Assembly (NCBI GenBank): GCA_963840225.1
Contig: CAWIYH010000002.1
Coordinates: 135,934 to 199,933, forward strand
Length of the DNA stretch: 64,000 nt
From: an uncultured Acidobacteriota bacterium
GTDB taxonomy: Bacteria; Acidobacteriota; Vicinamibacteria; Vicinamibacterales; CAVVIG01
Direction of reading: 5' to 3'
Every line of letters begins with the position of its first letter. The stretch's first letter is position 1. The notes below the pieces were generated by a model. That model did no database searches. It was not told the origin of the DNA and was given only the letters and a program-made list of their open reading frames with translations. Both the position numbers and the translations under genes were made by a program. Below, one piece after another: positions 17,215 through 37,516 of this stretch.

Positions 17215-19209
<1,995 letters not shown>

Positions 19210-19410: not shown

Positions 19411-20112
19411 ATGATCGTCCGTCACGTCGATGACCGCCTGCAGCTGATCACCCAGCCCGACCATGCCCACCTGGCTCGGCGCATCATGGAAGCGTGTGCG
19501 CCTCTGGCGGCGCGGCCGCGGCGCGAATCGATCCTCAACGCGATCGGCGAGCACGACAACGGATGGGCGGAGGCGGACGCGGCACCGCTGGCGAGCGCCG
19601 ACACCGGCTCGGTGGTCGACTTCGTAGCGGCGCCGCTGGCCGTCCGGCACGCCGTCTGGCCGCGGGGCGTCGCGCGGCTCGCCGACGATCCCTGGGCGGC
19701 GGCGCTGGTGGCGCAGCATGCGATCACGGTGTACGGCCGGTTCCGGTCCGACGCCGCGTGGACGCCTTTCTTCGCCGAGATGGAAGAGGCGCGCGACGCG
19801 ATGCGCCGCGCGAGCGGCGTGCCGGACGACATTTCGGCCGACTATCCGTTCGTCCGGCTCGGCGACCTGATCTCGCTGGCCCTCTGCACCGGCTCGACCG
19901 ACGAGCATCGCTTCGCCGAATACAGCGTGCGGCTGTCGGGGCACCGGGTCGTCGTCTCGCCCGACGTGTTCGGCGGAGCCGCGATTCCCGTCGAGATTGC
20001 CGCCAGGGAGATCCCCGACCGGCCGTATCGATCCGATGCGGCGCTGCGCGACACCCTGCGCGATGCGCCGCCGACGACGCTTCGGGGCGAGGTCGTGGGG
20101 CAGCGCCGCTGA
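19411..20112 (+). CDS. DUF3891-like protein
   Basis: The N-terminus LQLITQPDHAHLARRIMEA...AIGEHDNGWAEAD is typical of DUF3891 (recognised from memory). Confidence 0.7.
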   Translation: MIVRHVDDRLQLITQPDHAHLARRIMEACAPLAARPRRESILNAIGEHDNGWAEADAAPLASADTGSVVDFVAAPLAVRHAVWPRGVARLADDPWAAALVAQHAITVYGRFRSDAAWTPFFAEMEEARDAMRRASGVPDDISADYPFVRLGDLISLALCTGSTDEHRFAEYSVRLSGHRVVVSPDVFGGAAIPVEIAAREIPDRPYRSDAALRDTLRDAPPTTLRGEVVGQRR

Positions 20113-24292: not shown

Positions 24293-27200
24293 TCACTCGC
24301 GCTCGGCCCGGATGATCCGATACTCCCACGCGCCCGATCGCATCTGCTCGTAGACCATCGACCCGGGCACTGCCAGGAAGTTGTCGATCGCGCTCCCGCC
24401 GCCGAACGCCTGCGAGCGCGTGGCGGCGACCTCGTCGCACGACGCGAGGACGTTGGCCGTGATCGCGCGGTCCTGCGTGATCCGCAACCGGAGCGGCCCG
24501 AGGAGCGCGCGCACTTCCATCCACCGCGGCACCGGCAGGAGATCCGTGTAGAGGAACAGGCCGCCGCTCCTCAGCACCCGTGCGACCTCGCCGTAGAACG
24601 CGCGCAGGTTCGGATAGGTATGCGACGACTCGACGTTGGTGACCACGTCGAACGATCCGGCGTCGAACGGCAGATGCTCGGCGTCGCCGACGTCGAACCG
24701 GACGGCGGGGCGCGTGTGCGTGCGCCGGCAGAACGCGATCGCTTCGGGCGAGAGATCGACGCCCGTCACGTCGGCCTCCCAGCGTTCAGCCATCAGGGCG
24801 GCCGTGCCGCCTCGCCCGCAGCCGACGTCGAGCACCCCGCGCCGGCGCAGGTCGGCGCGGCCGATCAGCTCGAACGCCAGCCGAACCGAGCTTGGATTGA
24901 ACACGCCGGAGGGAACGTCGAATGCCGCCTCGTCGGCGCCGTCTCCGAGGGAGATGTAGCCGTAGTTCAGGAAGAACGACGCGCCGCCGACGCCGGCCCG
25001 CTCCAGCCGGCGCGTGATGTCGTCGTAGAACTCCCGATAGCTCGCCTTCGCGGCGGTCGCAGGCGCGGCGCCCTCGAGCGGAATGGGCGAGGGCGCGCGG
25101 CTCTCGGCGCCGGCCCAGGGAAGGCCGGCCGGCGCATCGTCGGCCCCGCCGGCCGCCTGCGCCTGCTCGACGAACACGGCGAGCTCGGCGATCGTCGGCG
25201 CCTGAAACAGTTTCAGCACGGGCAGCTCGATCTGGAGCCGATCCCGGATCTCGGACGCGACCTGCACGGCGAGCAGCGAGTGGCCGCCCAGATCGAAGAA
25301 GCGATCGTGGATGCCGATCGGGTCGATGGCGAGCTGGTTGCCCCAGATGTCGGCCAGTTCGCGTTCGGTCGCCGTACGCGGCTCGACGAACGCGGTCGTC
25401 AGGTTCGGGCGTGGATGCCGCTCGACCGGCGATCCCTTGGCCGGCGCCGAATCGGCGTGGCGGATCCAGGCCTTCAGCCGCGCCGCGAGGTCGCTGACGG
25501 CCACCAGCAGCCGCGGCCCGACGTCGGCGCCGAGGATCCGCAGGAACGCCTCGAGGCCCTCCGGCGGATGGATGGCGGTCGGCATCGAGGCGGCCTGGGC
25601 CTCGGCGGCGTTGTCCCACAGGTCCCAGCCGATGCTGAGCCAGCCGTCGCCGGCTGCGTCGGCCAGCGCGTCGAGGACGGCGTTCGCGGCGGAATACGCC
25701 GCGAGGCCCAGCCCGCCGAGGACGCTGGCGATCGACGAGTGGAGGACCCAGCGCCGCGGCTCGCGTCCGCGAAACGCCTCCGTCAGGTACAACAAGCCGC
25801 GCAGCTTCGGCGAGAACTGCGCTTCCATGACCTCGATGCCGGTCTCGGCCGCCGACGCGAACGCGGCCGCGTCGATTCGTGCCGCGCCGTGGATGACGAG
25901 ATCGATCCGGCCGAAGCGCTCGAACGCGAGGTCGACGGCCGTCTTCACCTGGTGGCCGTCGTTGAGATCGGCTTTCAACACGAGCACGTCGTCGCGCTCG
26001 GCCCGGAGGCGCGCCAGTCGCGCGAGCAGGTTCCGGTGCTCGGGCGGGGTGGCCGGATCCTCGCCGTGGGCGCGCCACGCCGAGGGCTCGGGCACCGCCG
26101 TGCGGCCGACCAGGATCAGCTTCGCATGCAGCCGCGAGAACATGCCCTCGGCCAGATTGATGCCCATGTGGCCGAGTCCGCCGGTCACCATCACCACCGG
26201 CTGCTCCGGCAGGCCAACGGGCGCGCGGGCCTCGCGAATCTCGACCGGCTCGTAGGTTTCGACCAGCCGCCGTCCACCCCGCAGGGCGACGGCCGGCTCC
26301 GGCGCGCCCGCGGCGAGCTCGGCGACGATCATGTCGGGCACGGCCGCGTCGTCGTCGACGTCGACGTGAGTGACGCGCAGGCCCGGATGCTCCTGCGGGA
26401 GCACTTTGGCCGACCCGATGCCGAGGGCTCTCGCCGCGTCGATCGCGTCGGCCGCCTCCACGCGGCGCGTGCCGCGAGCCACCAGGACCATCGCGAGAGG
26501 GCGAACGGTCGCCTGTCCGCTCAGCGCGTGTGCGAGTCGCATCGGGGCCAGCAGCGTCACGACGCCGGCGACGTCCAGATCGGTCGAGCCGGGCGGTTCG
26601 GCCGTCCAGCAGTCGACGATGCCGGCCAGGCGGTTGTCCCGGGTGCAGACCTGCGCAGCCAGCCGCTTGAAACCCCCGGGATCTGACGGATCGATCGTGT
26701 ACTGGTCGTCGCCGGCGCGATCGAACCGATCGCCCTGCCGCACGACAATCGCGTGAGCGCCGGCGCTCAGGAGCCGGGCGGAGACCGCCGCGCCGACTCC
26801 ACCGCCCTCGTCGAAGACGAGGATGCGCCGCCCGGCGAGCGACCCCGGTGCCCAGGCCACGGGCGCGGCCTCCCGCCAGATCGGCCGATGAAACCAGTTC
26901 GACGTGTCGCGAGCCTCGTGCGCGCGGCGCTCGACGGCGTGCCCGGGCCGCGGGCCGATCCAGTAGGTCCGCCGCTCGAAGGGGTACGTCGGCAGGCTGA
27001 CCCTCGTCCGTCGCTCCGATCGGTGGAATCCGTCCCAGTCGACGCTCGCGCCGCCGGCCCACAGCTGGCCGAGCGACGAGAGCATCACCTCGGTGCCCGA
27101 CCGGCGATCGTGCGCGCCCGGCAGCGACGTCGAACAGGGAGGCGGAGGTCCGCCGTTCCTCGCGATCTCGCTGGCGAAGGTGACCAGCGTGTTGCCAGGG

Positions 27201-29629
27201 CCGACTTCGAGGAACGCGTGGCTCTTGCCGACCGGTCCCTGGCCGGACGCGATCGTGCGCACGGCGTCGGCAAAGCGGACGGTGGATCGCAGCTGTGCAC
27301 TCCAGTACCAGGGGGACGTGACGGCGCTGCCGGCCCACTCGCCGGTCAGCGTCGCCGCGAAGGGAAGCGACGGCGGCGACAGCGGAACGGCCGCGACGAC
27401 CTCCTCGAACTCGCGCAGGATCGGGTCCATCATCGACGAATGGAAGGCGTGCGACGTGTGCAGGCGCCGCGCCGCGATCGATTCGCGCGCCAGCGCGGCC
27501 TCCACGCGATCGATGGCAGCATCCGGTCCGGAGAGCACCGAGTATCCAGGGCCGTTCACCGCGGCCAGCGAGACGTCGCCGCCCACGAAGGGCTCGAGCG
27601 CCGAGGCCGGCGCCATGGCCGCGAGCATCGATCCGCGAGGCAGGCCCGCAATCAGGCGGCCGCGGCGGGCGATGATCGAGAGCGCATCGTCCAGGCTCAT
27701 CACGCCGCCGAGCGTGGCGGCGACATATTCGCCGACGCTATGTCCCACCATCGCGGCCGGTTGAACGCCCCAGGAGCGCCACAATTCCGCGAGCGCGTAC
27801 GCGACCGTGAAGAGCGCCGGCTGCGCCCATTGCGTGTTCTTCAGCACGTCGGCCGCGTTCCGCCGGCGCCGCTCGGAGGGGAAGAGCAGCGTGCGCAGAT
27901 CGGCGCCGACCAGCGGCTTGAGAACACGGGCGCAACGGTCGATCGCCCGCCGGACCACGGGTTCGGTCTCGTAAAGGTCGCGGCCCATTCCCGGATACTG
28001 CGATCCCTGTCCCGGGAACATGAAGACGACGGCCCGTTCGGCGCCCGCGGCGGCGGCCGGCAGCCGCGCGGGATCGGCCAGCGAGTCCATCAGGCCCGAT
28101 CGATCGTCGCCGCCGACCACCACGGCTCGCCGGTGCCTGAACGCGCGGCGTCCCACGTGCAGCGTGAACGCGACGTCGGCCAGATCGAGCTCCGGGTGCG
28201 ACTGGAGGTGCCGGCCGAGCCGGGCGGTCGCCGCGTCGAGCGCCGATTCGCTCCGCGCCGACAGGACGATCAGCTGATGCGAGCGCCGCTCTTTCACCCC
28301 GGGCCGTTCCGGCGCCTCCTCGAGCACGACATGGGCGTTCGTGCCGCCCACGCCGAACGAGCTCACGCCGGCGCGCCGCGGCGTGCCGTTGCGCAGCCAG
28401 GGCTGCAGGGTCGTCGTCACATAGAACGGGCTCGTGGCGAAGTCGATGGCCGGGTTCGGGCTCTTGTAGTGCACGGTCGGCGGAATCGCGCCGTTCTCGA
28501 GCGTGAGGACCGCCTTGATCAGGCCGGCGACTCCCGCGGCGCACGACAGGTGCCCGAAGTTCGACTTCGCCGACCCGATGCCGCAGTAGCCCCGCTCACT
28601 CGAGGCGGACTTGAACACCTCGTTGAGCGCGGCCACCTCGATCGGGTCGCCGAGAATCGTCCCGGTTCCGTGCGCTTCGACGTAGCCGATCGATTCGGCG
28701 GACACGCCGGCCATTGCATGCGCGGCGCGGATGGCCGCCGCCTGGCCGCGAAAGCTCGGTGCCGTGTAGCCGACCTTGTCGTTGCCGTCGTTGTTCAACC
28801 CCGTGCCGAGGATCACGGCGCGGATCCGGTCGCCGGCCGCCAGCGCATCGCGGAGGCGCTTGAGGACCACCAGGCCGACGCCGCTCCCGACGATCGTGCC
28901 CTGAGCCTCCGCGTCGAAGGGCCGGCAGTGGCCGTCCGGCGACAGGATGGATCCGGGGGTGTAGTAGTAGCCGCCGCGCTGGGGCACGCGGACCGTGACG
29001 CCGCCGGCGAGCGCCATGTCGCACCGGCCCGCGTTCAGGCTCTCGCAGGCCAGCGACACCGCGACCAGCGACGTCGAGCACGTCGTCTGCACGACGATGC
29101 TGGGGCCGCGCAGGTTGAGGCGGTACGACGCCTGCGTGCAGAGGTGGTCCTTGTCGTTGGTCACCATCAACTGCATGCCGTCGATGTACTGGAGCGCCTC
29201 GATGTTCTGGTACAGCTGGTAGAGGTACGTGCTCATCTCGCACCCGCCATACAGGCCGATCGGTCCGGGGAAGGTGGCCGGATCGTAGCCGGCGTCCTCG
29301 AGCGCCTCCCAGCAGGTTTCGAGGAAGATGCGGTGCTGCGGATCGGTGAGCGACGCATCGCGTGCGGAGAAGCCGAAGAACTCGGCGTCGAACTCGTCCA
29401 CGTGGTCGAGCACCGGCGAGGCGTTCACGTAGCCGGGCAGGCGCGAGATGTTGTCGGGCACGCCGGCCGCCCGCATGTCCTCGGGCGTCAACGTCGCAAT
29501 CGACTCGACGCCCGCGGCCAGGTTGTGCCAGTACGCGTCGAGGTCGTTCGCGCCGGGAAACCGCCCGCGCATGCCGATAATCGCGACCGGCTCATGGCGC
29601 GGTCCGGTGCCGGCGCCGTTGCCTTTCAT
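24293..29629 (-). CDS. type I polyketide synthase, single module KS-AT-KR-ACP with C-terminal SAM methyltransferase
   Basis: KS: TTCSTSLVA, EAHGTGT, KSNFGHL. AT: FPGQGSQ, GHSVGEY, SHAFHS. KR: VTGGLGHMG ... SSIASVLGGLGLAAYSAAN. Carrier: FFDLGGHSLLAVQV. MT: VLDVGCGRGGTAALMAE ... FDVVTNVESSH. Confidence 0.95.
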   Translation of the reverse strand: MKGNGAGTGPRHEPVAIIGMRGRFPGANDLDAYWHNLAAGVESIATLTPEDMRAAGVPDNISRLPGYVNASPVLDHVDEFDAEFFGFSARDASLTDPQHRIFLETCWEALEDAGYDPATFPGPIGLYGGCEMSTYLYQLYQNIEALQYIDGMQLMVTNDKDHLCTQASYRLNLRGPSIVVQTTCSTSLVAVSLACESLNAGRCDMALAGGVTVRVPQRGGYYYTPGSILSPDGHCRPFDAEAQGTIVGSGVGLVVLKRLRDALAAGDRIRAVILGTGLNNDGNDKVGYTAPSFRGQAAAIRAAHAMAGVSAESIGYVEAHGTGTILGDPIEVAALNEVFKSASSERGYCGIGSAKSNFGHLSCAAGVAGLIKAVLTLENGAIPPTVHYKSPNPAIDFATSPFYVTTTLQPWLRNGTPRRAGVSSFGVGGTNAHVVLEEAPERPGVKERRSHQLIVLSARSESALDAATARLGRHLQSHPELDLADVAFTLHVGRRAFRHRRAVVVGGDDRSGLMDSLADPARLPAAAAGAERAVVFMFPGQGSQYPGMGRDLYETEPVVRRAIDRCARVLKPLVGADLRTLLFPSERRRRNAADVLKNTQWAQPALFTVAYALAELWRSWGVQPAAMVGHSVGEYVAATLGGVMSLDDALSIIARRGRLIAGLPRGSMLAAMAPASALEPFVGGDVSLAAVNGPGYSVLSGPDAAIDRVEAALARESIAARRLHTSHAFHSSMMDPILREFEEVVAAVPLSPPSLPFAATLTGEWAGSAVTSPWYWSAQLRSTVRFADAVRTIASGQGPVGKSHAFLEVGPGNTLVTFASEIARNGGPPPPCSTSLPGAHDRRSGTEVMLSSLGQLWAGGASVDWDGFHRSERRTRVSLPTYPFERRTYWIGPRPGHAVERRAHEARDTSNWFHRPIWREAAPVAWAPGSLAGRRILVFDEGGGVGAAVSARLLSAGAHAIVVRQGDRFDRAGDDQYTIDPSDPGGFKRLAAQVCTRDNRLAGIVDCWTAEPPGSTDLDVAGVVTLLAPMRLAHALSGQATVRPLAMVLVARGTRRVEAADAIDAARALGIGSAKVLPQEHPGLRVTHVDVDDDAAVPDMIVAELAAGAPEPAVALRGGRRLVETYEPVEIREARAPVGLPEQPVVMVTGGLGHMGINLAEGMFSRLHAKLILVGRTAVPEPSAWRAHGEDPATPPEHRNLLARLARLRAERDDVLVLKADLNDGHQVKTAVDLAFERFGRIDLVIHGAARIDAAAFASAAETGIEVMEAQFSPKLRGLLYLTEAFRGREPRRWVLHSSIASVLGGLGLAAYSAANAVLDALADAAGDGWLSIGWDLWDNAAEAQAASMPTAIHPPEGLEAFLRILGADVGPRLLVAVSDLAARLKAWIRHADSAPAKGSPVERHPRPNLTTAFVEPRTATERELADIWGNQLAIDPIGIHDRFFDLGGHSLLAVQVASEIRDRLQIELPVLKLFQAPTIAELAVFVEQAQAAGGADDAPAGLPWAGAESRAPSPIPLEGAAPATAAKASYREFYDDITRRLERAGVGGASFFLNYGYISLGDGADEAAFDVPSGVFNPSSVRLAFELIGRADLRRRGVLDVGCGRGGTAALMAERWEADVTGVDLSPEAIAFCRRTHTRPAVRFDVGDAEHLPFDAGSFDVVTNVESSHTYPNLRAFYGEVARVLRSGGLFLYTDLLPVPRWMEVRALLGPLRLRITQDRAITANVLASCDEVAATRSQAFGGGSAIDNFLAVPGSMVYEQMRSGAWEYRIIRAERE

Positions 29630-30603
29630 CGCGCGCCCTCGACCGCGGCGGGGGGAGCCTGGGGAGCGGTCGCGGCGGACGCCTCCTGGCGCGGCTCGGC
29701 GGTGGTCGCCGTGATGCGGAGCGGAATCTCCAGCCGCGGTTCCCCTTCCCGGCTGATGCGCAGTCCGGCGACGTACACGACGTCAGGCTGGTACGTCTCC
29801 CGGTCGAGCACGAGCGATACGACGAGCGTTGTCTCCTCGTTCGGGCCGAGCACGAGATCGCCAGGATCAATCTGGATCGCCGGGACGAAGGCCGGGCCGA
29901 CGCCGTCGGCGCGCCGGACATCGGTCACCTGGCACCGGATCGCCGCCGGCTCGTCGCGCGTGTTCTCGATCGTCAGCGAGAGGGCGGCGCGTTCCCCCGA
30001 GGGTCCGGCCAGGTGCAGCACGGGCGCATCCGCAACCGACGGGTGCGGGGCCGCCAGGACGGCCCGGAGGAGCTCCTCCTGGAAATCGGCCCCGAGGTCG
30101 GTGGCGCCCTGCAGCATGTCGAAGTAGAGCCGGCCCAGGTCGCGGATCTGTTCGGTCGCGCGAGCCGCATAGAAGTTCGAGAACGCGCCCTGGGTTTCCG
30201 GGGCGTCCGCGCGGCCCGCGGCGGCGCGCTCCACTTCGGCCTGATAGTCCCGGACCGCCCGGTGGTTGACCTCGTTGGCGTACTCGACGAGGCGCCGGAG
30301 CCAGGCCATTGGATCGGCGGCGTCGAAGGCCGGTGGCGGATGCGACGCGTGCCCCGCCACCTGCACCAGGCCGGCGAAGAAACACGCGCTCAACTCCGTC
30401 AATCGGGCGGAGTAGGCCGCGCCGCGGGACTCCGAGAGCGCAGACAGAAGGTCACGTACGGTGGCCGGCGACAGTTCGCCCTGGGCCACCCGTCGAAGAA
30501 CGCTGGAGTAGAGATCGAGCGCACGAACCGACCGCTGCGCCGAGCGCATGACGTAGTGCGCATAGGAAGCTGACCAGTCGGCCGATCCCTCCGTCTGCAC
30601 CAT
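29626..30603 (-). CDS. hypothetical protein: phasin-like helical N-half + beta-sandwich-like C-half; translationally coupled to the PKS
   Basis: GGGAGG RBS. Its stop overlaps the PKS ATG (ATGA at 29626-29629). It is a paralog of 32869-33882. No signal peptide or TM segment. Confidence 0.75.
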   Translation of the reverse strand: MVQTEGSADWSASYAHYVMRSAQRSVRALDLYSSVLRRVAQGELSPATVRDLLSALSESRGAAYSARLTELSACFFAGLVQVAGHASHPPPAFDAADPMAWLRRLVEYANEVNHRAVRDYQAEVERAAAGRADAPETQGAFSNFYAARATEQIRDLGRLYFDMLQGATDLGADFQEELLRAVLAAPHPSVADAPVLHLAGPSGERAALSLTIENTRDEPAAIRCQVTDVRRADGVGPAFVPAIQIDPGDLVLGPNEETTLVVSLVLDRETYQPDVVYVAGLRISREGEPRLEIPLRITATTAEPRQEASAATAPQAPPAAVEGAR

Positions 30604-30817
30604 TCCGCCTCCCTGTGAAGCGCTTCAGCATATACAAAAGCCCCGGCCGCGGGACGACGAGCTATGGATGAGTTGGCGCGATTTTTCCGCCGCCGCCGCC
30701 GCGCCCGCAGCCCGTATAATCGGCTCCGCGTGGCGGGACGTCCGAGCGCCCGGCTGCGCGCGCGGGTGCGACTGGTGTGTTCGCCGGCGATTGCCGCGCG
30801 GACGTGTGGAGGTGGTG

Positions 30818-31339
30818 ATGCCCGGTGGGGGAAAAGGCGGCGGGTCCAGCACGGTCACCGTGAACAACGGGCCGGTGACGGTCGACGCCGACAGCACCGT
30901 CGAGGTCGTGGGCCTCGACAACATCAAGCTGACGCTGCAGCCGTCGCCGCTCAAGACGGAATCGAAACAGGAGCTGGTTCTCCCGCAGCCGTTCAAGACC
31001 GAGAGCAAGGTCGACACGACCTCGGGCATCACGAGCGACAGCAAGAGCGCGATGGCGATCGACCTCAAGCCGGTCGCGCTCGACGTCTGCCTGAACACGA
31101 AGCTGCCGCAGGGCCAGATCTGCCAGCCCTTCTCGTATCACCTCGGCGTCACGTGGTTCGGCGTCGAGCTGCTCGGCCTCAATTTCGGCGGCGAGTCGCG
31201 TGTCGTGCTGCAGGATCTCCCGAAGAAGCCGTCGATCGAGTGGCCGGCCCAGCAGAATGCCGGCCCGGCGCACGATGCCGGTCGCGATCGTCCGTTCCAG
31301 GCGGCCGGCGATCGCGGCCTCCGCGTGCGGGTGAAGTAG
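30818..31339 (+). CDS. hypothetical protein (173 aa), Gly-rich N-terminus, beta-rich
   Basis: GGAGG at 30808-30812 precedes ATG 30818. MPGGGKGGGSSTVTVNNGPVTVDADSTVEVVGLDNIKLTL.... Internal near-repeat PLKTESKQE / PFKTESKVD. Confidence 0.7.
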   Translation: MPGGGKGGGSSTVTVNNGPVTVDADSTVEVVGLDNIKLTLQPSPLKTESKQELVLPQPFKTESKVDTTSGITSDSKSAMAIDLKPVALDVCLNTKLPQGQICQPFSYHLGVTWFGVELLGLNFGGESRVVLQDLPKKPSIEWPAQQNAGPAHDAGRDRPFQAAGDRGLRVRVK

Positions 31340-31347
31340 GAACCGCC

Positions 31348-32136
31348 GTGGCGGCACAGACCCCTCGGAGAATCGCGCTCCTCAACGACGCCGCGCAGCC
31401 GCTGGTCGTCGTCGGGCCGCCCCGGGCGATGCGCGGCGAGCTGCGCCTCCAGAATTCCACGGAACGGAAGGTCGTCCTCCGGCAGCTTCAGCTGCGCGCT
31501 GCCGCGCCGCCGCGGGCCAAGGGCGCTCGCGGGCCGCACCCCGTGCCGCTGCCGGGCCACGCGGTGGCGCTGCGCCGGGTCGTCGTCCGCGCCGGAGAAG
31601 CCCGGCACGTGTCGATTGCCCTCGCGCTGGATCCGGCGACGCCTCCCGGCACCTATCACGCCGAGCTCGATGTCGACGGCGATCAGCGCAACGTTCTCCT
31701 GCACGTCGTCGAAGACGTGGCGTTTTCGATGTCGCCGCGGGAGCTCGTGATCCCCAACCAGGCGGGCGCCAAGGTCGAGAAGGCGGTCGTCATCGAGAAC
31801 CTCGGCAACGTGCCGCTGACGGTGAAGACGATCGGCGCCGTGGTGCTCGACGAGGAGCTGGCGCACTGCCGGGCGCTCCGGGGCGCCCTGGCCGACGTCG
31901 GCGACACAATGAAGAACCTCGACGATTTCGCGGTCGCCCTCGGCCGTCGCTACCGCGCGATCTACGGCACCCTCGCCTTGAAGGTCCAGAACGAGAAGCT
32001 GACGGTCGAGCCCGGCAGGACGGCGACCCTCGATCTGACGATTACGCTCCCCGACAAGCTCGAGCCGCGCGGGCGCTACACCGGATACGCGGCGATCTCT
32101 ACAGGTGCTTTGACGTTCACCATCGTGCCCGACTAG
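31348..32136 (+). CDS. hypothetical protein with two beta-sandwich-like modules (262 aa)
   Basis: GTG 31348 lies 8 nt after the upstream stop. LRLQNSTERKVVLRQLQL...PGTYHAELDVDG and VVIENLGNVPLTVKTIG...LTVEPGRTATLDLTITLPD. Confidence 0.7.
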   Translation: MAAQTPRRIALLNDAAQPLVVVGPPRAMRGELRLQNSTERKVVLRQLQLRAAAPPRAKGARGPHPVPLPGHAVALRRVVVRAGEARHVSIALALDPATPPGTYHAELDVDGDQRNVLLHVVEDVAFSMSPRELVIPNQAGAKVEKAVVIENLGNVPLTVKTIGAVVLDEELAHCRALRGALADVGDTMKNLDDFAVALGRRYRAIYGTLALKVQNEKLTVEPGRTATLDLTITLPDKLEPRGRYTGYAAISTGALTFTIVPD

Positions 32137-32164
32137 ATCGGAGCGCGAGCAGGAGGGCATCGCG

Positions 32165-32860
32165 ATGCACGCCTCGCACGACGAGTGGTCCCGCCAGGAC
32201 CGCGGACCGGCCGTCTACTACGGATATTGCGGCCGGACGCGCCGGTTCCGCATGATGGATCTGCCCGACTACCTGTCCAACGCCCAGCAGGGGATGTCGC
32301 GGCTGGCCACCGATCCGCAGGGCATCTACCAGGAGATGATCCAGAGCTACTACGGGCCCTCGGCGGCCGGGGGCGGCGGCGTCCACGGCTGGGCGCTCCA
32401 CGACTGCGGGTGCCACGGCGGCCGCGACTGTCACTGCGAGTGCTGCGTCTCAGACGCCGACGTCCTCGTGCACGCCCGTTGCGGCGAGGTTCGCCGGATT
32501 CCGGTCACCTTCGAGAACGATACCCGGCGAGAGCGCAACGTCACCCTGGAGCTCGGCCAGTTCGCGGCCTCCGGCGGCACCGATCTGAAGTGGAACGCGC
32601 AGCTGTCGGAGCAGGCGTTCACCCTCGCGCCGTGCGGCGAACATACGGTCATCGTCACGGTACGCGTGGAATGCGATGGTCCAGACGTCGCCGGCGCCGT
32701 GAACGAGCGCGGCGTCGGCACCGTGGATCGATGCCGGACCGGGTACGCCACCCTGCGCGCAGAGGGCTGCCTGGTGCGGCCGGCCGTGCTCGCGGTTGCC
32801 GTGCTGCCCGACGACTGCGATTCGTATCGCCGTCCCTGCAGCTGCGGCTGCTGCAACTGA
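32165..32860 (+). CDS. Cys-rich hypothetical protein (17 Cys in 231 aa) with a central beta-sandwich-like module
   Basis: AGGAGGG RBS. HDCGCHGGRDCHCECC (aa 79-94) and C-terminal PCSCGCCN. Middle region VTFENDTRRERNVTLELGQF...FTLAPCGEHTVIVTVRV. Confidence 0.75.
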   Translation: MHASHDEWSRQDRGPAVYYGYCGRTRRFRMMDLPDYLSNAQQGMSRLATDPQGIYQEMIQSYYGPSAAGGGGVHGWALHDCGCHGGRDCHCECCVSDADVLVHARCGEVRRIPVTFENDTRRERNVTLELGQFAASGGTDLKWNAQLSEQAFTLAPCGEHTVIVTVRVECDGPDVAGAVNERGVGTVDRCRTGYATLRAEGCLVRPAVLAVAVLPDDCDSYRRPCSCGCCN

Positions 32861-32868
32861 GTGGACCG

Positions 32869-33882
32869 GTGACGCAGGCGACCGACTGGGGGCTCAGGTT
32901 CCAGGAGCTCGCCGCCGACGCCGGGCAGATGTACGCGCGCACGCTGCGCCGCTACAACGAGCTGCTCGATCGCGTCGCGCGCGCCGAGGTCAGCCCACAG
33001 GAGGTCGAGCGGCAGTTCCGCGAATACCTGCAGGAACAGGCGGCCGCGTCGACGCGTGAGCTGGTCGAGCTGAGCGTCGGTCTCCTCGCCGGCCTGCTCC
33101 ACGTCGAGGCCCGGTACCGCGAGGCGCTCCTCGACGGTCTCCTGCCGGCAGAGGGCGCTCCGCCTCCGCCTCCCTCGCCGTCGAGCATCGACGTGACGAA
33201 CTGGTTTCAGGCGCTCGCCACGTACGCGGCGGAGCAGAGCGCGCGCGGCATCGCGCGGCACCAGCAGCTCGTCGAGCGGGTCGCATCCGGCGAGATTCCA
33301 CCGTCCAGGGTGCAGGAGCAGGGACGCCGGTATCTCGAGCGGCACGCCCCCGAGTTTCTCGGCGACGTCATGAACCTGGGGCTCACCTTCGTCGGCCGGC
33401 TGCAGCGGTCGTCGGCATCCTTCGCCGACGGCCTGTACAATCGCGTGCTCGGCGCCGAGCCGGCCGGCGCCCCGTCGGGCCCCGAGCCGCCGGTCTGCGT
33501 CGACCTGCGCGGGCCGTCAGGCAGCGTGGCATCGGGGGGCATCGTCGTGGAGAACTCGCGTCCGCAGCCGGCGGACGTGGTGTGCCGCGCCTCGGAGTTC
33601 GCGCGGCGCAGCGGCGGGCGCCGTGTCCGCGCCCCGCTCGAGATCCTCCCATCGCAGTTCACGCTCGCCCCGGGCGGACAGAAGGACGTCGCCATCCGTC
33701 TGCCGCTCGACCCCGAGCAGTTCGAGACGGGAGCCGACTACGTGGCCACGCTCCTCGTCTCGGGCGCCGGCGAGCAGGATCTCGTCGTGCCGCTGATCGC
33801 ACGAGCCGAAGCCGGCGCCGCGCCGCCCGCCCCGGCGACCCCCGCCGGGCCACCGCGCGCCCGGCGCAAAGCCCGAAGCTAG
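32869..33882 (+). CDS. hypothetical protein, paralog of 29626-30603 (phasin-like helices + beta-sandwich)
   Basis: GTG 32869 lies 8 nt after the upstream stop. RVARAEVSPQEVERQF and RVASGEIPPSRVQEQG repeats. C-terminus IVVENSRPQPADVVCRASEF...FTLAPGGQKDVAIRLPLD. Confidence 0.75.
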   Translation: MTQATDWGLRFQELAADAGQMYARTLRRYNELLDRVARAEVSPQEVERQFREYLQEQAAASTRELVELSVGLLAGLLHVEARYREALLDGLLPAEGAPPPPPSPSSIDVTNWFQALATYAAEQSARGIARHQQLVERVASGEIPPSRVQEQGRRYLERHAPEFLGDVMNLGLTFVGRLQRSSASFADGLYNRVLGAEPAGAPSGPEPPVCVDLRGPSGSVASGGIVVENSRPQPADVVCRASEFARRSGGRRVRAPLEILPSQFTLAPGGQKDVAIRLPLDPEQFETGADYVATLLVSGAGEQDLVVPLIARAEAGAAPPAPATPAGPPRARRKARS

Positions 33883-34076: not shown

Positions 34077-34928
34077 ATGTCAGACATCAAGCAGGCCGTT
34101 CAAGAGAAATATGGCGCCATCGCCGCGTCCGTCGCACAGTCCTCGGCCGCCTCCAGGGTCGGCTGCTGCGGGCCGACGGCGTGCGGAGGGGACGACCCGA
34201 TCACGTCGAAGCTGTACTCCGACGCGGAGACAACCGGCCTGCCGGCCGCGGCCGTGGCGGCGTCCCTCGGATGCGGCAACCCGACGGCGCTCATCGACCT
34301 CGAGCCCGGCGAGACCGTCCTCGACCTCGGTTCGGGCGGCGGCATCGACGTCCTGCTGTCGGCGAAGCGGGTCGGTCCCACCGGCAAGGCCTACGGGCTC
34401 GACATGACCGACGAGATGCTGGCGCTCGCGCGTGAGAATCAGCAGAAGGCCGGCGCGGCCAACGTCGAGTTCCTCAAGGGCACCATCGAGGCGATCCCGC
34501 TCCCCGACGCCTCGGTCGACGTCGTCATCTCCAACTGCGTCATCAACCTGTCGAGCGACAAGGACGCCGTGCTGCGCGAGGCGTTCCGGGTGCTGAAGCC
34601 GGGCGGCCGGTTCGCCGTGTCCGACGTGGTGGTTCGCGGCGAGGTTCCCCCCGACATCCGGCGCAACATGGAATTGTGGGTCGGCTGCATCGCCGGCGCG
34701 CTCGAAGAGCGCGAGTACACCGAGAAGCTGCGAGCGGCCGGCTTCGGCGACGTGACGGTCGAGCCGTGGCGCGTCTACCAGGTGGAGGACGCGCGGGCGT
34801 TTCTGACCGAGGCCGGCGTCGACGTCGATCGGTTCGCCCCGCAGGTCGAGGGCAGGTTCGCGAGCGCGTTCGTCCGCGCCCGCAAGCCGGACGCGGCGCC
34901 CTGCTGCGGTCCGCGCTGCTGCTCGTAG
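34077..34928 (+). CDS. arsM: arsenite S-adenosylmethionine methyltransferase
   Basis: [16 protein letters not shown]..., Cys pairs ([16 protein letters not shown]), the SAM motif [19 protein letters not shown], and a C-terminal PCCGPRCCS. Confidence 0.9.
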
Positions 34929-35135: not shown

Positions 35136-35542
35136 GCGACGATCCGCGCACCGTGGTCTTCGCGTGCGTGCACAACGCGGGGCGGTCGCAGATGGCGGCG
35201 GCGTTCTTCAATCGCATTGCCGACGCCCGCCGGGCGCGCGCGCTGTCGGCCGGCACCGAGCCCGCCGACCACGTTCATCCGGAGGTCGTGGCGGTCATGC
35301 ACGAGGCGGGCATCGACCTGAGCGCCGCCACGCCGCGGCTGCTCACGGCCGACCTCGCCCGCTCGATCGACTGGCTCGTCACGATGGGGTGCGGCGAATC
35401 GTGCCCGGTGGTTCCGGGCGCCAGGCGCGAAGACTGGCCGCTCGCCGATCCGAAGGGTCAGCCGCCGGCCCGCGTCCGCGAGATTCGGGACGAGATCCGG
35501 CGCCACGTCGAGGACTTCATCCGTCGCGAAGGGCTCGGGTGA
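35132..35542 (+). CDS. arsC: arsenate reductase, LMW-PTPase type
   Basis: VVFACVHNAGRSQMAAAFF (CX5R P-loop), later MGCGESCP, and DPKGQ. Confidence 0.88.
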   Translation: MSDDPRTVVFACVHNAGRSQMAAAFFNRIADARRARALSAGTEPADHVHPEVVAVMHEAGIDLSAATPRLLTADLARSIDWLVTMGCGESCPVVPGARREDWPLADPKGQPPARVREIRDEIRRHVEDFIRREGLG

Positions 35543-35614
35543 GCGGGTCGATCGCGTCTCCGGAACCGGATGAGGATGTGAAGGCCGCCGCGTCGGCGGG
35601 CCCGGCCGATCGGG

Positions 35615-37510
35615 TCAGCGGATCGAATAGTCCTGCGCCAGGGGCGACGAGAGAATGGAGAGGGCCAGGAGGTTCTGCGGGTCCTTCCCGTTGACCGCCT
35701 TCGCCAGCTGGAACGCCTTCGCGTACTCCTGCTTGCGGAAGTAGTACGTCGCCAGCAGCGCCTGCAAATCGAGGTTGGAGGGGAACCACTTGCGCGCGGT
35801 GTCGGCCATCGCGCCGAGATTGTCGATGGCGCCCGACTGGAGGTACGCCCTCCCGAGCATCACGTAGGCCGCCTCCATGCGCGGATCGAGCAGCACCGCC
35901 TTCTCCAGGTACGGCGTGGCCAGGTCGGTGTCCCGTTCGGCGAGATACAGCGTGCCGAGACAGAAGTAGCCATCGGGGTTGAGCGGCTCCAGGCGCTGGG
36001 CCTTCAGGAAGGCCAGCTCGGCCTTGTCGTAGACGTGCTGCTCGGCAAACAGCTTTCCGATGTCGATCCACGCCGCCTGGAAATCCGGATAGATGCGAAT
36101 CGCCTGCGTGAAAGCCCGCATCGCGGCCGCCAGGCGTTCCTGCCGCTCGTCGGGCGACGACAGCGTAGCGCTCTCGCTCTGGAGATCGGATCCGTAGATC
36201 ACCTGCGCGGCGGCGTTGTTCTGCATGTAGCGGATCCGGTTTCGGATGAGCGTCGAGTCGTTGCGCCAGTCTCCGCTGACGACGGCCGTGCGCGCGAAGA
36301 AGGCGACGAGGACGATCGACAGAAGAGCCAGCGCCCCTCTTGCGGTTCCGCTCGCCAGCGTCGGCGCTCTCAGCGGGATGGATCCCGCCCTGAAGACACA
36401 GTAGATCGCGACCATCGACAGCCCGACCGACGGCATGAACAGATACCGATCGGCCATCGTGTCGGGCGCGTAGACCAGCAGGTTCGAGTACACCGAGTAG
36501 GTGACGACGGCCCATAGGACGCCGAAGGCGAGCGGGCTCCGCGCGGGCAGCGTCCTCCACACCAGGACGGCCAGCGCCGCCAGACCGCCGATCACGAGCC
36601 ACGTCACGGGATCGACCCAGCTGTTCAATGGAATCTGGTCGTACCCGTACAGGTGAATGAGCGGGTGAGGCACCACGAACAGGCGAACGTAGCGGGCGAT
36701 GATGACGAGCGCCGTCGGGACGATGGCATGCGGACGGGTCGTCCACAGGAAGACATTGTTCAGGACCGTCGAGTTCAGGTGCAGGACGAGGTCCGGCGAG
36801 ACCGTGTTCAACAGTTTCCGAACCGCGACGGCCAGCACGGCGCTCGAGACCGCCGCAGCGCCGATCGCGATCGCGAGCCGGCGCGAGACCCCCGGGCCCG
36901 ACGATCGATACCAGGCCACGAGGGGCACGAGAGGAAGCAGCGTGATCGCGTTCTCCTTGGACAGGCAGGCGGCGAGAAAGCAGGCCGCGCCTCCCACGAA
37001 CGACCGCCACTTCAGCCCCTCGAGTCCCTCGACCAGCAGCATGATCGACGCCAGGCCGAAGACGAGGGCGAGAATCTCGTCCCGGCTCTTGATGTTCGCC
37101 ACGACTTCGACGTGCAGCGGGTGAACCGCGAACAGCGCCGCGACGAGCAGCGCGTACAGCGGACCGAGACCGACGAAGACGAACCGCGCGAACTGGTACA
37201 CCATCACGCAGGCGGCCGCGTACCACAGGACGTTGAAGGCGTGGCCGGTGTGCGGGTTGCCCCCGAACAGCTGGTATTCGACGGCGTGCAGCGCCTGAGG
37301 CACCGGGCGGTACTCGCTCTTGAACGGCACGCTCACCCGTTTCGTGAAGATGTCGGGCAGGCCCCGGATGCCCGCCTTCGTGTAGTCGTTGGCGGTGATG
37401 GCCAGCTTGTCGTCCCAGGCGTACCCGTACGTCACCGTGCCGGCGTACTGCAGCGCCGCCAGGACGAATATCACCAGCGGCAATAGGCGGGACGCGCGCG
37501 ACAACGCCAC
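35615..37510 (-). CDS. GT-C fold glycosyltransferase of the PMT_2/TMTC/ArnT type with C-terminal TPR repeats
   Basis: N-terminal YGYAWDDKLAITAN motif and ~11 TM helices. The C-terminus carries TPRs (AFTQAIRIYPDFQAAWIDIGKLF..., LEKAVLLDPRMEAAYVMLGRAYL...). GTG start lies 6 nt after the upstream stop. Confidence 0.8.
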   Translation of the reverse strand: MALSRASRLLPLVIFVLAALQYAGTVTYGYAWDDKLAITANDYTKAGIRGLPDIFTKRVSVPFKSEYRPVPQALHAVEYQLFGGNPHTGHAFNVLWYAAACVMVYQFARFVFVGLGPLYALLVAALFAVHPLHVEVVANIKSRDEILALVFGLASIMLLVEGLEGLKWRSFVGGAACFLAACLSKENAITLLPLVPLVAWYRSSGPGVSRRLAIAIGAAAVSSAVLAVAVRKLLNTVSPDLVLHLNSTVLNNVFLWTTRPHAIVPTALVIIARYVRLFVVPHPLIHLYGYDQIPLNSWVDPVTWLVIGGLAALAVLVWRTLPARSPLAFGVLWAVVTYSVYSNLLVYAPDTMADRYLFMPSVGLSMVAIYCVFRAGSIPLRAPTLASGTARGALALLSIVLVAFFARTAVVSGDWRNDSTLIRNRIRYMQNNAAAQVIYGSDLQSESATLSSPDERQERLAAAMRAFTQAIRIYPDFQAAWIDIGKLFAEQHVYDKAELAFLKAQRLEPLNPDGYFCLGTLYLAERDTDLATPYLEKAVLLDPRMEAAYVMLGRAYLQSGAIDNLGAMADTARKWFPSNLDLQALLATYYFRKQEYAKAFQLAKAVNGKDPQNLLALSILSSPLAQDYSIR

Positions 37511-37516
37511 GGCCGC

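What the first reader, a model, noticed from the sequence alone, without database searches (positions are those of the whole stretch)
24293..33882. Divergent PKS / unknown beta-sandwich protein cluster: best candidate for an undescribed system
A 214-bp divergent region (30604-30817) separates two units. On the minus strand, a 325-aa unknown protein has a stop that overlaps the start of a 1778-aa PKS (ATGA at 29626-29629). On the plus strand lies a four-gene operon with gaps of 8, 28 and 8 nt and strong GGAGG-type RBSs. I cannot place any of the five non-PKS proteins in a characterised family. All lack signal peptides and TM segments. All but the first plus-strand gene share one beta-sandwich-like module, with the pattern (V/I)ENxxxxP..V....F, ~25 aa, F(T/S)LxPG....V.(V/L).L..D, then Y.A.L. 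That module occurs once in each paralog, twice in 31348-32136 and once in the Cys-rich protein. The two paralogs add N-terminal helical repeats reminiscent of phasins. A private family of cytoplasmic Ig-like/phasin-like proteins that is translationally coupled to a lipid-type PKS suggests a coat or scaffold for a polyketide-lipid product or inclusion. That functional idea is speculation.
Basis: partly seen in the sequence, partly recalled or inferred. Interest (0 to 1): 0.85.

Follow-up and report, generated by a model that had tools for sequence, protein, structure and literature searches.

The report
Unknown four-protein module partnered with lipid synthases
A polyketide synthase sits in a fixed six-gene cassette with five uncharacterised, apparently non-enzymatic proteins, and four of those proteins recur in other genome contexts beside polyprenyl synthases, which points to an undescribed cytoplasmic machine that handles lipid-like chains.

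Summary
All six genes are real, with third-codon-position GC (GC3) of 0.84-0.91. The ATGA overlap, the 214-bp divergent spacer and the 8/28/8-nt gaps are as described. None of the five small proteins reaches any Pfam, NCBIfam, PADLOC or PDB-sequence threshold.

The shared beta-sandwich module survives profile-profile alignment at 95-97% probability. An AlphaFold model of p4 (pLDDT 93.8) identifies it as a PapD-like/MSP fold attached to a duplicated helical hairpin.

The cassette PKS<-g325 | p1-p2-p3-p4 is syntenic in 11 of 11 sufficiently long loci from Acidobacteriota and Gemmatimonadaceae MAGs.

The main new result is that the family is not private. p1-p2-p3-p4 is a portable module found in loci of 38-71% GC. 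There its partner is a polyprenyl synthase (8 loci), a different PKS, or a DUF362 protein.

The PKS has intact KS, malonyl-AT, KR, carrier and O-methyltransferase-like domains but no release domain. p3 carries about 17 invariant cysteines and ends in CxCxCC-X. p4 homologs often carry basic tails or a helix-hairpin-helix domain.

I commit to a non-enzymatic scaffold or coat that holds the enzyme and its hydrophobic chain (confidence about 0.35). Covalent lipidation of p3 is the most novel surviving alternative. Function remains untested.

The parts
24293..29629 (-). Single-module type I PKS, 1778 aa. Domains in window coordinates: KS 28316-29593, AT 27185-28027, KR 25613-26194, PCP-like carrier 25178-25360, C-terminal methyltransferase 24311-25048. 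It has no TE, R or C release domain.
   Evidence: Pfam domains. The NCBIfam match for the C-terminal domain is to the lipid O-methyltransferases PthPhpthDimycoMt (E 2e-41) and Mtf2 (E 1e-37). Intact motifs: TTCSTS, EAHGTG, KSNFGH, GHSVG, HAFH (malonyl-specific), GGLGHMG, S..Y..N, GGHSL and VLDVGCGRG. Orthologs are 64-78% identical.
29626..30603 (-). g325, a paralog of p4. The helical hairpin region is 30034-30603 and is variable in orthologs. The PapD-like sandwich is 29704-30033 and carries the conserved motif VRRADGVGPAF. The stop codon overlaps the PKS start (ATGA, 29626-29629).
   Evidence: The 4-nt overlap with the KS start recurs in L001, L013, L014 and L016, and in the colinear variant L058.
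30604..30817 (.). Divergent intergenic region of 214 bp. It contains TATAAT at 30715-30720 (plus-strand operon) and TATACA at 30631-30636, which reads TGTATA on the minus strand.
   Evidence: A TATAAT-like hexamer lies 39-115 nt upstream of p1 in all 8 orthologous spacers. The generic two-hexamer scan does not flag it, so the promoter assignment is weak.
30818..31339 (+). p1, 173 aa. Features: N-terminal MPGGGKGGG (30821-30844); short repeats of variable copy number, PLKTESKQELxLPQP (about 30941-31015); a conserved C-terminal domain (31034-31255); a variable linker; and a conserved tail GLRVRVK (31316-31336).
   Evidence: Alignment of 39 homologs. The tail GLR[VI]R[ILV] is conserved in variants A, A', B and C. 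GKG or GGK is found in 109 of 120 homologs. The AF2 monomer model is poor, with pLDDT 43 and only a hairpin at residues 100-130.
31348..32136 (+). p2, 262 aa, with two PapD-like sandwiches: domain 1 at 31387-31719 and domain 2 at 31720-32133. Domain 2 contains a helical insert. The TPPG[TE]Y motif is invariant.
   Evidence: hhalign against the p4 sandwich gives 96.6% and 94.9%. Ortholog alignments are. p2 is the most widely conserved member, found in 98 loci.
32165..32860 (+). p3, 231 aa. It has a Cys/His string CGCHGGRDCHCECC...H..C (32405-32482), a Cys-bearing sandwich (about 32462-32836), and the C-terminal sequence PCSCGCCN (32837-32857).
   Evidence: There are 17 Cys and 2 His at 90% conservation or more. 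Exactly one residue follows the last Cys in 116 of 120 homologs. The sandwich scores 94.9% against the p4 sandwich.
32869..33882 (+). p4, 337 aa. Features: helical hairpin 1 (32878-33129); an invariant poly-Pro linker (33145-33192); helical hairpin 2 (33193-33450); a PapD-like sandwich (33499-33810); and the basic tail PRARRKARS (33841-33879).
   Evidence: AF2 gives pLDDT 93.8 and pTM 0.71. Foldseek PDB matches Caf1M, PapD, the VAP-A MSP domain, and the CEP192 and Hydin ASH domains, at E about 1e-5 and probability 1.0, over the sandwich only. Basic tails occur in 62 of 120 homologs.

Best explanation
**What is shown.** The region is a self-contained six-gene cassette. A catalytically intact, release-domain-less, single-module PKS (KS, malonyl-AT, KR, carrier, lipid-type O-methyltransferase) is co-translated with an adaptor, g325. 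It is divergently paired with a four-protein module, p1-p4. None of the five small proteins matches an enzyme family. Four of them (g325, p2, p3, p4) are built on one PapD-like beta-sandwich. The p1-p4 module is portable, and in other genome contexts its partner is a polyprenyl synthase.

**What is inferred.** I propose that the small proteins assemble into a cytoplasmic scaffold or coat.
- The helical-hairpin plus sandwich proteins (g325, p4) dock the chain-making enzyme.
- p1 is disordered on its own. It ends in an alternating hydrophobic/basic tail that may add a strand to a sandwich edge.
- p2 and p3 form the body of the assembly. p3 probably binds metal through its Cys/His strings.
- The basic tails or HHH domains tether the assembly to nucleic acid or another polyanion, as MLDS does for lipid droplets.

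In this model the hydrophobic chain (a 3-hydroxy- or 3-methoxy-acyl chain here, a prenyl chain elsewhere) is kept on or in the assembly rather than released freely.
For: **Synteny.** The same gene order and the g325/PKS overlap are found in 11 of 11 loci with enough flank. The flanking genes differ.

**Module portability.** p1, p2, p3 and short p4 lie beside a polyprenyl synthase in L017, L018, L020, L021 and L026. More distant versions are in L075, L077 and L098. HMM E-values run from 1e-36 to 6e-61.

**Partner statistics.** Of the 8 metagenome-scan loci with at least 5 kb on both sides of p2, 6 carry a PKS or a polyprenyl synthase.

**Enzyme-adaptor adjacency.** It recurs in three arrangements:
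- g325 immediately upstream of the KS in variants A and A'.
- The polyprenyl synthase immediately upstream of short p4 in variant B.
- Two p4-like genes immediately upstream of the polyprenyl synthase in L077.

**No enzyme signature.** The five proteins match no enzyme family. The p4 model is four long helices plus a PapD-like sandwich. The sandwich is shared by p2 (twice), p3, p4 and g325.

**Polyanion-binding ends.**
- Basic tails occur in 62 of 120 p4 homologs.
- HHH_5/DUF4332 domains occur on short forms.
- In variant A', which lacks p4, the K/R-rich tail sits on p2 instead.
- MLDS binds DNA through C-terminal PAKKA motifs and links lipid droplets to DNA (PMC5504291).

**Lipid-related neighbours in variant B.** There is a weak SCP2-like protein and a weak DUF2804-like protein. 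A geranylgeranyl-reductase-like gene follows the polyprenyl synthase in L077.

**No release domain.** The PKS lacks one.
Against: No assembly, inclusion or interaction has been observed; everything about function is inferred from sequence and context.
- The cassette has no enzyme to release the chain or convert it into a neutral storage lipid. A diphosphate-bearing prenyl chain is not a droplet lipid.
- The phasin similarity is below every threshold.
- Beta-amphipathicity in p1 is no higher than in shuffled sequences.
- About 17 invariant cysteines in p3 are not explained by a simple coat.
- Some distant variants have a DUF362 protein and an epimerase as neighbours, with no lipid enzyme within reach.
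- Only p4 was modelled with confidence. p2 and p3 folds rest on profile alignment.
Confidence: 0.35

Rival explanations
1. Covalent protein lipidation. The release-less PKS (acyl-S-carrier) or the GGPP-type synthase (prenyl diphosphate) would donate its chain to the cysteine strings of p3. The strictly C-terminal CxCxCC-X would be a prime acceptor. An alternative acceptor is the conserved Gly-flanked lysine at the p1 N-terminus. The result would be a lipid-anchored protein assembly.
For: - The PKS has no TE, R or C domain. Transthioesterification to a Cys thiol would serve as a release route (my inference).
- The two alternative partner enzymes both make activated lipid donors.
- p3 ends in PC[GS]CGCC[HND], with exactly one residue after the last Cys in 116 of 120 homologs. 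It also has a CHCxCC string.
- p1 begins MPGGGKGGG in most homologs.
- From my own knowledge: Rab GTPases are geranylgeranylated on C-terminal CC/CXC motifs, and cysteine-string proteins are multiply S-acylated.
Against: - No acyl- or prenyl-transferase fold was detected in the cassette.
- In the distant variants the p3-like Cys are not C-terminal.
- Seventeen invariant Cys plus two His fit metal binding at least as well.
- A native bacterial cytoplasmic S-prenylation or S-acylation system of this type is not known to me.
Confidence: 0.17
2. A closed protein nanocompartment. p2, p3 and p4 would tile a shell built of PapD-like domains. The shell would enclose the PKS or prenyl synthase, with g325/p4 or the p1 tail acting as targeting elements, by analogy with encapsulins.
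For: - The variant-B polyprenyl synthase resembles the family 2 encapsulin cargo polyprenyl transferase (NF041169, E 2e-52, below cut-off).
- A conserved C-terminal tail follows a variable linker in p1.
- There are several non-enzymatic structural proteins.
Against: - No HK97-fold or BMC-fold protein was detected.
- I know of no precedent for Ig-like-domain shells of this kind.
- The PKS shows no recognisable targeting peptide beyond its conserved MT C-terminus.
- There is no structural evidence for oligomerisation.
Confidence: 0.12
3. A soluble carrier or chaperone complex. It would bind the hydrophobic product, or the enzyme, and hand it to the membrane or to another pathway, without forming any inclusion.
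For: - PapD and MSP domains are peptide- or subunit-binding modules, according to the annotations of the Foldseek hits.
- There is an SCP2-like neighbour in variant B.
- g325 is translationally coupled to the PKS.
Against: Four or five different non-enzymatic proteins, including a disordered repeat protein and a Cys-string protein, are more than a simple carrier needs. Basic tails and HHH domains are not explained.
Confidence: 0.15
4. A metal- or redox-centred assembly. The p3 Cys/His strings, and the His-rich linkers of some p1 homologs, would bind or store metal or a cluster. The lipid enzyme would be accessory.
For: - p3 has 17 Cys and 2 His that are nearly invariant.
- His-rich linkers occur in 14 of 120 p1 homologs.
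- A CobW/HypB/UreG GTPase lies downstream in L021, and DUF362 neighbours occur in 5 distant loci. DUF362's link to Fe-S proteins is from my own recollection of its Pfam description.
Against: - A PKS or polyprenyl synthase is the dominant conserved partner.
- No metal transporter or regulator is conserved nearby.
- p3 matches no known metalloprotein family.
Confidence: 0.1
5. An ordinary biosynthetic gene cluster whose 'hypothetical' genes are unrelated accessory, regulatory or resistance genes, with no common assembly.
For: Many PKS clusters contain unannotated small genes. No experiment links these proteins.
Against: - The order and spacing of all six genes are fixed across two phyla, while the flanks vary.
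- Four of the five small proteins share one domain.
- The four-gene module travels intact to other partner enzymes.
Confidence: 0.05

Closest known systems
Phasins and other PHA-granule-associated proteins (PhaP, PhaF, PhaM)
   Same: Both are small, non-enzymatic, helix-rich cytoplasmic proteins encoded next to the enzyme that makes a hydrophobic product. Some carry basic nucleoid-binding tails. PhaM attaches PHB granules to the nucleoid (PMC3556143, title and abstract).
   Different: - No phasin HMM is matched: TIGR01841 scores 11.5 bits against a 30.2-bit cut-off, and 4 of 66 homologs reach E <= 1 (best E 1e-3).
- No PHA synthase is present in any locus.
- The proteins here carry a PapD-like sandwich, which phasins lack.
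- The partner enzyme is a PKS or a prenyl synthase.
Rhodococcus lipid-droplet protein MLDS
   Same: A droplet-binding part is combined with a Lys-rich C-terminal tail that binds DNA (PAKKA motifs; PMC5504291). Of 120 p4 homologs, 62 have tails with a net charge of +4 or more. Others have HHH_5 domains.
   Different: There is no sequence relationship. No triacylglycerol or wax-ester synthase lies nearby. DNA binding by p4 is untested.
PapD-like / MSP / ASH beta-sandwich superfamily (chaperone-usher chaperones, VAP MSP domain, Hydin and CEP192 ASH domains)
   Same: The p4 sandwich matches this fold (Foldseek E about 1e-5, probability 1.0; target-normalised TM-score 0.32-0.58 for the named PapD/Caf1M/MSP/ASH hits, lower where the sandwich is one domain of a much longer chain). 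Members typically bind a peptide or strand from a partner (my knowledge).
   Different: - No Pfam model of that superfamily is matched.
- The proteins are cytoplasmic, with no signal peptide, usher or pilin genes.
- The sandwich is fused to duplicated helical hairpins.
Family 2 encapsulin systems with polyprenyl transferase cargo
   Same: A polyprenyl synthase of the same general type is encoded with non-enzymatic structural proteins. NF041169 scores E 2e-52 on the variant-B enzyme.
   Different: The score of 178.8 is below the 450 cut-off. No HK97-fold shell protein is present. This applies to variant B, not to the window.
Single-module lipid-type PKSs with a terminal tailoring domain (the CurM/Ols type), and the mycobacterial lipid O-methyltransferases Rv2952 and Mtf2
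   Same: The PKS has a KS-AT-KR-carrier core that extends an acyl chain by one malonyl unit and reduces it. The methyltransferase is homologous to lipid O-methyltransferases.
   Different: - The C-terminal domain is a methyltransferase with no thioesterase or sulfotransferase.
- The carrier has a PCP-like GGHSL motif.
- There is no loading or release domain.
- The PKS is invariably coupled to g325.

Membership tests
Type I polyketide synthase | KS, AT and carrier domains with intact catalytic motifs on one polypeptide | tested here: met
   Pfam E-values run from 2e-69 to 6e-15. Motifs present: C/H/H in the KS, GHSVG and HAFH in the AT, the KR triad, GGHSL in the carrier.
Type I polyketide synthase | A chain-release domain (TE, R or C) in the terminal module | tested here: not met
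   None appears in the Pfam or NCBIfam results. The C-terminus is a methyltransferase.
Phasin (TIGR01841 / Phasin_2) | A match to the family HMM above the curated cut-off | tested here: not met
   p4 scores 11.5 bits against a 30.2-bit cut-off, E 0.32. Of 66 homologs, 4 match, with best E 1e-3. g325 has no hit.
Phasin (TIGR01841 / Phasin_2) | Genomic or functional association with a PHA synthase and PHA granules | tested here: not met
   No PhaC-type gene was called in the annotated neighbourhoods. Granule localisation cannot be tested here.
PapD-like / MSP fold superfamily | A seven-stranded Ig-like sandwich that superposes on PapD, MSP or ASH structures | tested here: met
   Foldseek against the PDB gives E about 1e-5 and probability 1.0 over 105-148 aligned columns for p4. 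g325, p2 (twice) and p3 are linked to this sandwich by hhalign at 95-99%.
Chaperone-usher pilus chaperones | A periplasmic location (signal peptide) and neighbouring usher and pilin genes | tested here: not met
   There is no hydrophobic N-terminus. No usher or pilin family appears in any neighbourhood.
Encapsulin nanocompartment | An HK97-fold shell protein encoded with the cargo | tested here: not met
   There are no encapsulin Pfam or NCBIfam hits. The p4 fold is helical plus Ig-like. p1-p3 folds were not modelled with confidence.
Nucleoid-tethering granule/droplet proteins (MLDS and PhaM type) | A Lys/Arg/Ala/Pro-rich C-terminal tail that binds DNA | tested here: inconclusive
   Basic tails occur in 62 of 120 p4 homologs, including the window's PRARRKARS. 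HHH_5 domains occur on short forms. DNA binding cannot be tested with these tools.
Anti-phage defence systems (PADLOC) | A match to any PADLOC protein model | tested here: not met
   There are no hits at E <= 0.01.

The most novel reading that the evidence does not exclude
p1-p4 (with g325) would be a previously unrecognised kind of bacterial cytoplasmic lipid-protein assembly, present in loci spanning 38-71% GC and in at least two named phyla. A release-less PKS or a GGPP-type synthase would be docked by a helical-hairpin/PapD-like adaptor. It would load its chain directly onto the module, most provocatively by covalent S-acylation or S-prenylation of the invariant cysteine strings of p3. This would give a self-built lipidated protein body tethered to the nucleoid.
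Probability: 0.2. Interest if true: 0.93.

Novelty: categorically new. Interest (0 to 1): 0.8.

Why it matters
**A sizeable set of undescribed families.** Four protein families fall outside Pfam, NCBIfam and the PDB by sequence. Each has hundreds of soil-metagenome homologs. Together they form a fixed module in Acidobacteriota, Gemmatimonadaceae and other, unidentified lineages.

**A testable logic.** The module pairs either with a polyketide synthase that cannot release its product or with a polyprenyl synthase. This suggests that a lipid chain is made on, and kept by, a dedicated protein assembly.

**Consequences if true.**
- It would add a new type of bacterial subcellular structure, or a new protein-lipid modification.
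- It would explain a common 'orphan' single-module PKS that genome miners would probably score as a natural-product cluster.
- It would give PapD-like/MSP domains a cytoplasmic role in bacteria.

**Practical value even if the mechanism differs.** The cassette is compact, at about 9.6 kb and six genes, so it can be synthesised and tested directly.

Tried and rejected
- **Exact-sequence look-ups of window proteins.** The closest relatives are Vicinamibacterales MAGs.
- **AF2 on p1 with 39 homologs.** It gave pLDDT 43 and no usable fold, so no Foldseek search was run on it.
- **Foldseek of p4 against viral structures.** It returned only generic Ig-like hits.
- **Helical domain of p4.** It could not be searched separately. 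The top 50 PDB hits all cover the sandwich.
- **Narrow-profile hhalign.** It gave only 35-52% for the shared module. Broad profiles were needed.
- **Amphipathic beta-hairpin idea for p1.** It was tested and rejected: the beta hydrophobic moment does not exceed that of shuffled sequences.
- **Generic sigma-70 scan.** It did not flag the divergent spacer. The TATAAT hexamers were found only by eye and by regular-expression search.
- **Searches that found nothing.**
  - PADLOC.
  - Rfam over the whole window.
  - PDB profile searches for p1-p4 and B349.
  - Pfam on 23 p3 homologs.
- **Cluster-member name look-ups.** They returned no organism or product names.
- **Literature.** Five full-text searches found no description of this module.
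- **Hypotheses rejected.**
  - A Tat signal in p2: the RR is not conserved in orthologs.
  - A secreted pilus-like system: there is no signal peptide or usher.
  - A RiPP precursor role for p1: no maturation enzymes are present.
- **Apparent g325-KS fusions (P0417, P0427).** They degrade into frameshifted sequence, so they were not used as evidence.

Full report
**1. The observation**

The window is about 70% GC, so raw ORF lists are crowded. Coordinates, the ATGA stop/start overlap at 29626-29629, the 214-bp divergent spacer and the 8/28/8-nt gaps are all as described. GGAGG-type ribosome-binding sites are clear before g325, p1 and p3, and weaker before p2 and p4.

Pfam gives KS, AT, KR, PP-binding and a class I methyltransferase for the 1778-aa protein. 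All catalytic motifs are intact. The AT carries HAFH, which indicates malonyl specificity. The carrier has a PCP-like GGHSL motif. NCBIfam places the C-terminal domain nearest the mycobacterial lipid O-methyltransferases: phthiotriol methyltransferase at E 2e-41 and Mtf2 at E 1e-37. There is no thioesterase, reductase or condensation domain.

**2. The five small proteins match no characterised family**

They have no hit above cut-off in Pfam, NCBIfam or PADLOC. Profile searches against all PDB sequences find nothing. Scanning 23 p3 homologs and 66 p4 homologs one by one adds only marginal hits. Phasin TIGR01841 appears in 4 of 66, with best E 1e-3. No 19-residue window is hydrophobic enough for a membrane span.

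**3. The shared module is real**

g325 and p4 are paralogs over their full length. The first narrow profiles linked the putative sandwiches of p2 and p3 to p4 only weakly, at 35-52%. After I widened the family alignments with metagenomic and variant sequences, hhalign gave much stronger values:
- p2 domain 1 against the p4 sandwich: 96.6%, E 5e-10.
- p2 domain 2 against the p4 sandwich: 94.9%.
- p3 sandwich against the p4 sandwich: 94.9%.
- The two helical hairpins of p4 against each other: 99.7%.

An AlphaFold2 model of p4 built from 66 homologs is confident (pLDDT 93.8, pTM 0.71). It has four long helices forming two hairpins, joined by an invariant poly-proline linker, followed by a beta-sandwich. 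Foldseek against the PDB places that sandwich in the PapD-like/MSP/ASH fold. The matches are Caf1M, PapD, FaeE, the VAP-A MSP domain, and the CEP192 and Hydin ASH domains, at E about 1e-5 and probability 1.0. No listed hit covers the helical part.

p1 is different. With 39 homologs the monomer model is poor (pLDDT 43), and only a hairpin at residues 100-130 is predicted.

**4. Conservation of the cassette**

p4, p1 and p3 each have hundreds of homologs at 45-82% identity in soil metagenomes. All are unnamed or 'hypothetical'. A scan of one genome per species found 11 loci, all MAGs of Vicinamibacterales or other Acidobacteriota, Thermoanaerobaculia and Gemmatimonadaceae.

In every locus with enough flank the arrangement is PKS<-g325 | p1->p2->p3->p4. 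This covers 8 loci from that scan and L001, plus 3 further independent contigs, L013, L014/L015 and L016. The g325 stop overlaps the PKS start in these loci. The flanking genes differ. Clustering of all neighbouring ORFs found no further conserved gene, only shadow frames of the six.

The PKS is the best conserved member at 64-78% identity. g325 is the least conserved at 30-50%. Its helical part is variable and sometimes shortened, while its sandwich keeps a VRRADGVGPAF motif.

**5. The family is not private, and the PKS is not its only partner**

A profile search of 1.84 billion representative proteins found 665 clusters at E <= 1e-3 and 309 at E <= 1e-10. Many are short forms with one helical hairpin plus the sandwich. 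Some of these carry a C-terminal HHH_5/DUF4332 domain.

Their neighbourhoods, together with 80 loci fetched using a p2 alignment, were labelled with my family HMMs. They fall into several variants:

| Variant | Gene arrangement | Loci |
|---|---|---|
| A | PKS<-g325, divergent from p1-p2-p3-p4 | The window, L001-L016 and many metagenome loci |
| A' | Colinear p1-p2-p3-g325-like-PKS, no p4; g325 again overlaps the KS start | L036, L048, L058 |
| B | p1-p2-p3-polyprenyl synthase-short p4 (with HHH in L017/L018), then four more conserved unknown genes | L017, L018, L020, L021; rearranged in L026 |
| C | p1-p2-p3-short p4, convergent with a different PKS carrying a DH domain | L019 |
| D | More distant p1-p2-p3-like-short p4 sets in loci of 38-50% GC | L067, L077, L083, L087, L088, L099 and others |

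Among the four extra genes of variant B, one is weakly DUF2804-like and one is weakly SCP2-like.

Distant and variant-D loci have mixed neighbours. L075, L077 and L098 carry a polyprenyl synthase, and in L077 a geranylgeranyl-reductase-like gene follows it. Five other loci have a DUF362 protein, and three of these also an NAD-dependent epimerase.

The variant-B synthase scores best against short-chain and GGPP synthases, and against the family 2 encapsulin polyprenyl-transferase cargo model. All these scores are below cut-off.

Of 21 loci with at least 5 kb on both sides of p2, 15 have a PKS, 4 a polyprenyl synthase, 1 a DUF362 protein and 1 nothing recognisable. In the less biased metagenome subset, 6 of 8 have a PKS or a polyprenyl synthase.

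**6. Sequence features that constrain function**

- **p3.** It has 17 cysteines and 2 histidines conserved at 90% or more. These include a CHCxCC string and a C-terminal PC[GS]CGCC-X. Exactly one residue follows the last Cys in 116 of 120 homologs. The Cys-rich character persists in variants B and D.
- **p1, N-terminus and repeats.** It starts MPGGGKGGG in most homologs. It contains short repeats of variable copy number.
- **p1, C-terminus.** After a variable linker that is sometimes His-rich, it ends in GLR[VI]R[ILV] in variants A, A', B and C.
- **Basic tails.** Half of the p4 homologs end in tails with a net charge of +4 or more. In variant A', which lacks p4, a K/R-rich tail sits on p2 instead. 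This suggests that the system needs a polyanion-binding end somewhere.

**7. Interpretation**

The following points are shown:
- The cassette is a conserved, self-contained unit.
- A PapD-like sandwich is shared by four of the five small proteins.
- p4 and g325 contain a duplicated helical hairpin.
- The four-gene module is portable and has interchangeable partners that make lipid chains.
- An adaptor-type protein is tightly coupled to the enzyme.
- The PKS lacks any release domain.

The following points are inferred. The small proteins are structural or adaptor proteins that assemble with the enzyme and retain its hydrophobic chain. I commit to a scaffold or coat model at about 0.35. In that model g325 and p4 dock the enzyme, and p1 folds only on assembly, possibly by adding its tail as a strand to a sandwich edge. 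p2 and p3 form the body, with p3 binding metal. The basic tails or HHH domains tether the assembly, as MLDS does through PAKKA motifs for Rhodococcus lipid droplets (PMC5504291) and PhaM does for PHB granules (PMC3556143).

The model has weaknesses. Nothing in the cassette releases the chain or makes it a neutral lipid. The phasin similarity is sub-threshold. The cysteine strings are unexplained.

These weaknesses keep a second reading alive at about 0.17. In it, the chain is transferred covalently to the p3 cysteines, or to the p1 lysine. Both alternative partner enzymes make activated lipid donors. A thiol acceptor would also solve the release problem. Against this, no transferase fold is present.

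Other rivals and their confidences:
- A closed shell: 0.12.
- A soluble carrier complex: 0.15.
- A metal-centred assembly: 0.10.
- An ordinary cluster with unrelated accessory genes: 0.05. This last one is disfavoured by the synteny and the shared domain.

**8. Comparison with known systems, and novelty**

By fold the sandwich belongs with PapD, MSP and ASH domains. The proteins are not chaperone-usher chaperones, because they have no signal peptide, usher or pilin. They are not phasins by any HMM, and not encapsulins. They work most like granule- or droplet-associated proteins, but without homology and with a different enzyme.

Five full-text literature searches found no description of the module.

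I rate it categorically new as a system, with the caveat that its function is inferred. Interest is high. The module is abundant and occurs in loci of very different base composition. It is compact enough to synthesise and test. It also touches an open question: what TE-less single-module PKSs in uncultured soil phyla actually do.

Noticed in passing
window 19411-20112 (+); L013 11271-11975 (-): A DUF3891 protein (Pfam E 2e-31) lies about 4 kb beyond the PKS in the window. A DUF3891 gene lies directly after p4 in L013. This could be coincidence or a loose association.
   Followed up: partly
window 17215-19347 (-): A sigma-54 activator with GAF, AAA+ and HTH_8 domains lies 5 kb from the cassette. 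It is not conserved in orthologous loci, and no sigma-54 promoter was sought in the spacer.
   Followed up: no
window 35517-39899 (-) and 35615-37510 (-): A 1460-aa ORF with weak BNR and Sortilin-Vps10 hits overlaps a 631-aa TPR-repeat ORF in another frame. The gene call here is unresolved.
   Followed up: no
window 34077-34928 (+): A stand-alone class I methyltransferase (Methyltransf_31, E 8e-38) lies 195 nt downstream of p4. It is not conserved at that position in orthologous loci, although L016 has a similar methyltransferase 6 kb away.
   Followed up: partly
L011 (contig CAZZGM010000534.1): A 2.3-kb contig carrying p2-p3-p4 is binned in a 'Bifidobacteriaceae' MAG. Given its similarity to the Acidobacteriota and Gemmatimonadaceae loci, this is probably a mis-binned contig.
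   Followed up: no
P0417 and P0427 (profile-search hits): These predicted proteins have a g325-like sequence that runs into the KS N-terminus and then into frameshifted sequence. They are probably assembly or gene-calling artefacts at the 4-nt overlap, not true fusions.
   Followed up: partly
P0365 and P0367 (445-457 aa); P0399; P0491: These are natural domain rearrangements in the superfamily. P0365 and P0367 are p4 plus an extra g325-type sandwich on one chain. P0399 has a multi-span hydrophobic N-terminus fused to a g325-like protein. P0491 is a short form fused to DUF4474.
   Followed up: partly
P0152 (p1 homolog): One JGI record names a p1 homolog 'predicted component of type VI protein secretion system'. 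No Pfam or NCBIfam T6SS model matches p1, so this looks like a weak automatic assignment.
   Followed up: partly
L069 12172-14067 (+): In one distant variant the p4-like gene is followed by a 631-aa protein with CsgG (E 1e-25) and OmpA (E 4e-22) domains. This envelope protein is out of keeping with the otherwise cytoplasmic set.
   Followed up: no
L021 15921-17003 (+): A CobW/HypB/UreG-family GTPase, a metallochaperone type, lies directly downstream of the variant-B operon. This is of interest given the Cys/His strings of p3 and the His-rich p1 linkers.
   Followed up: no
window PKS against L001 (Gemmatimonadaceae): The PKS is 69% identical over 1771 aligned residues between what appear to be different phyla. 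This suggests either lateral transfer of the cassette or unusually strong constraint.
   Followed up: no
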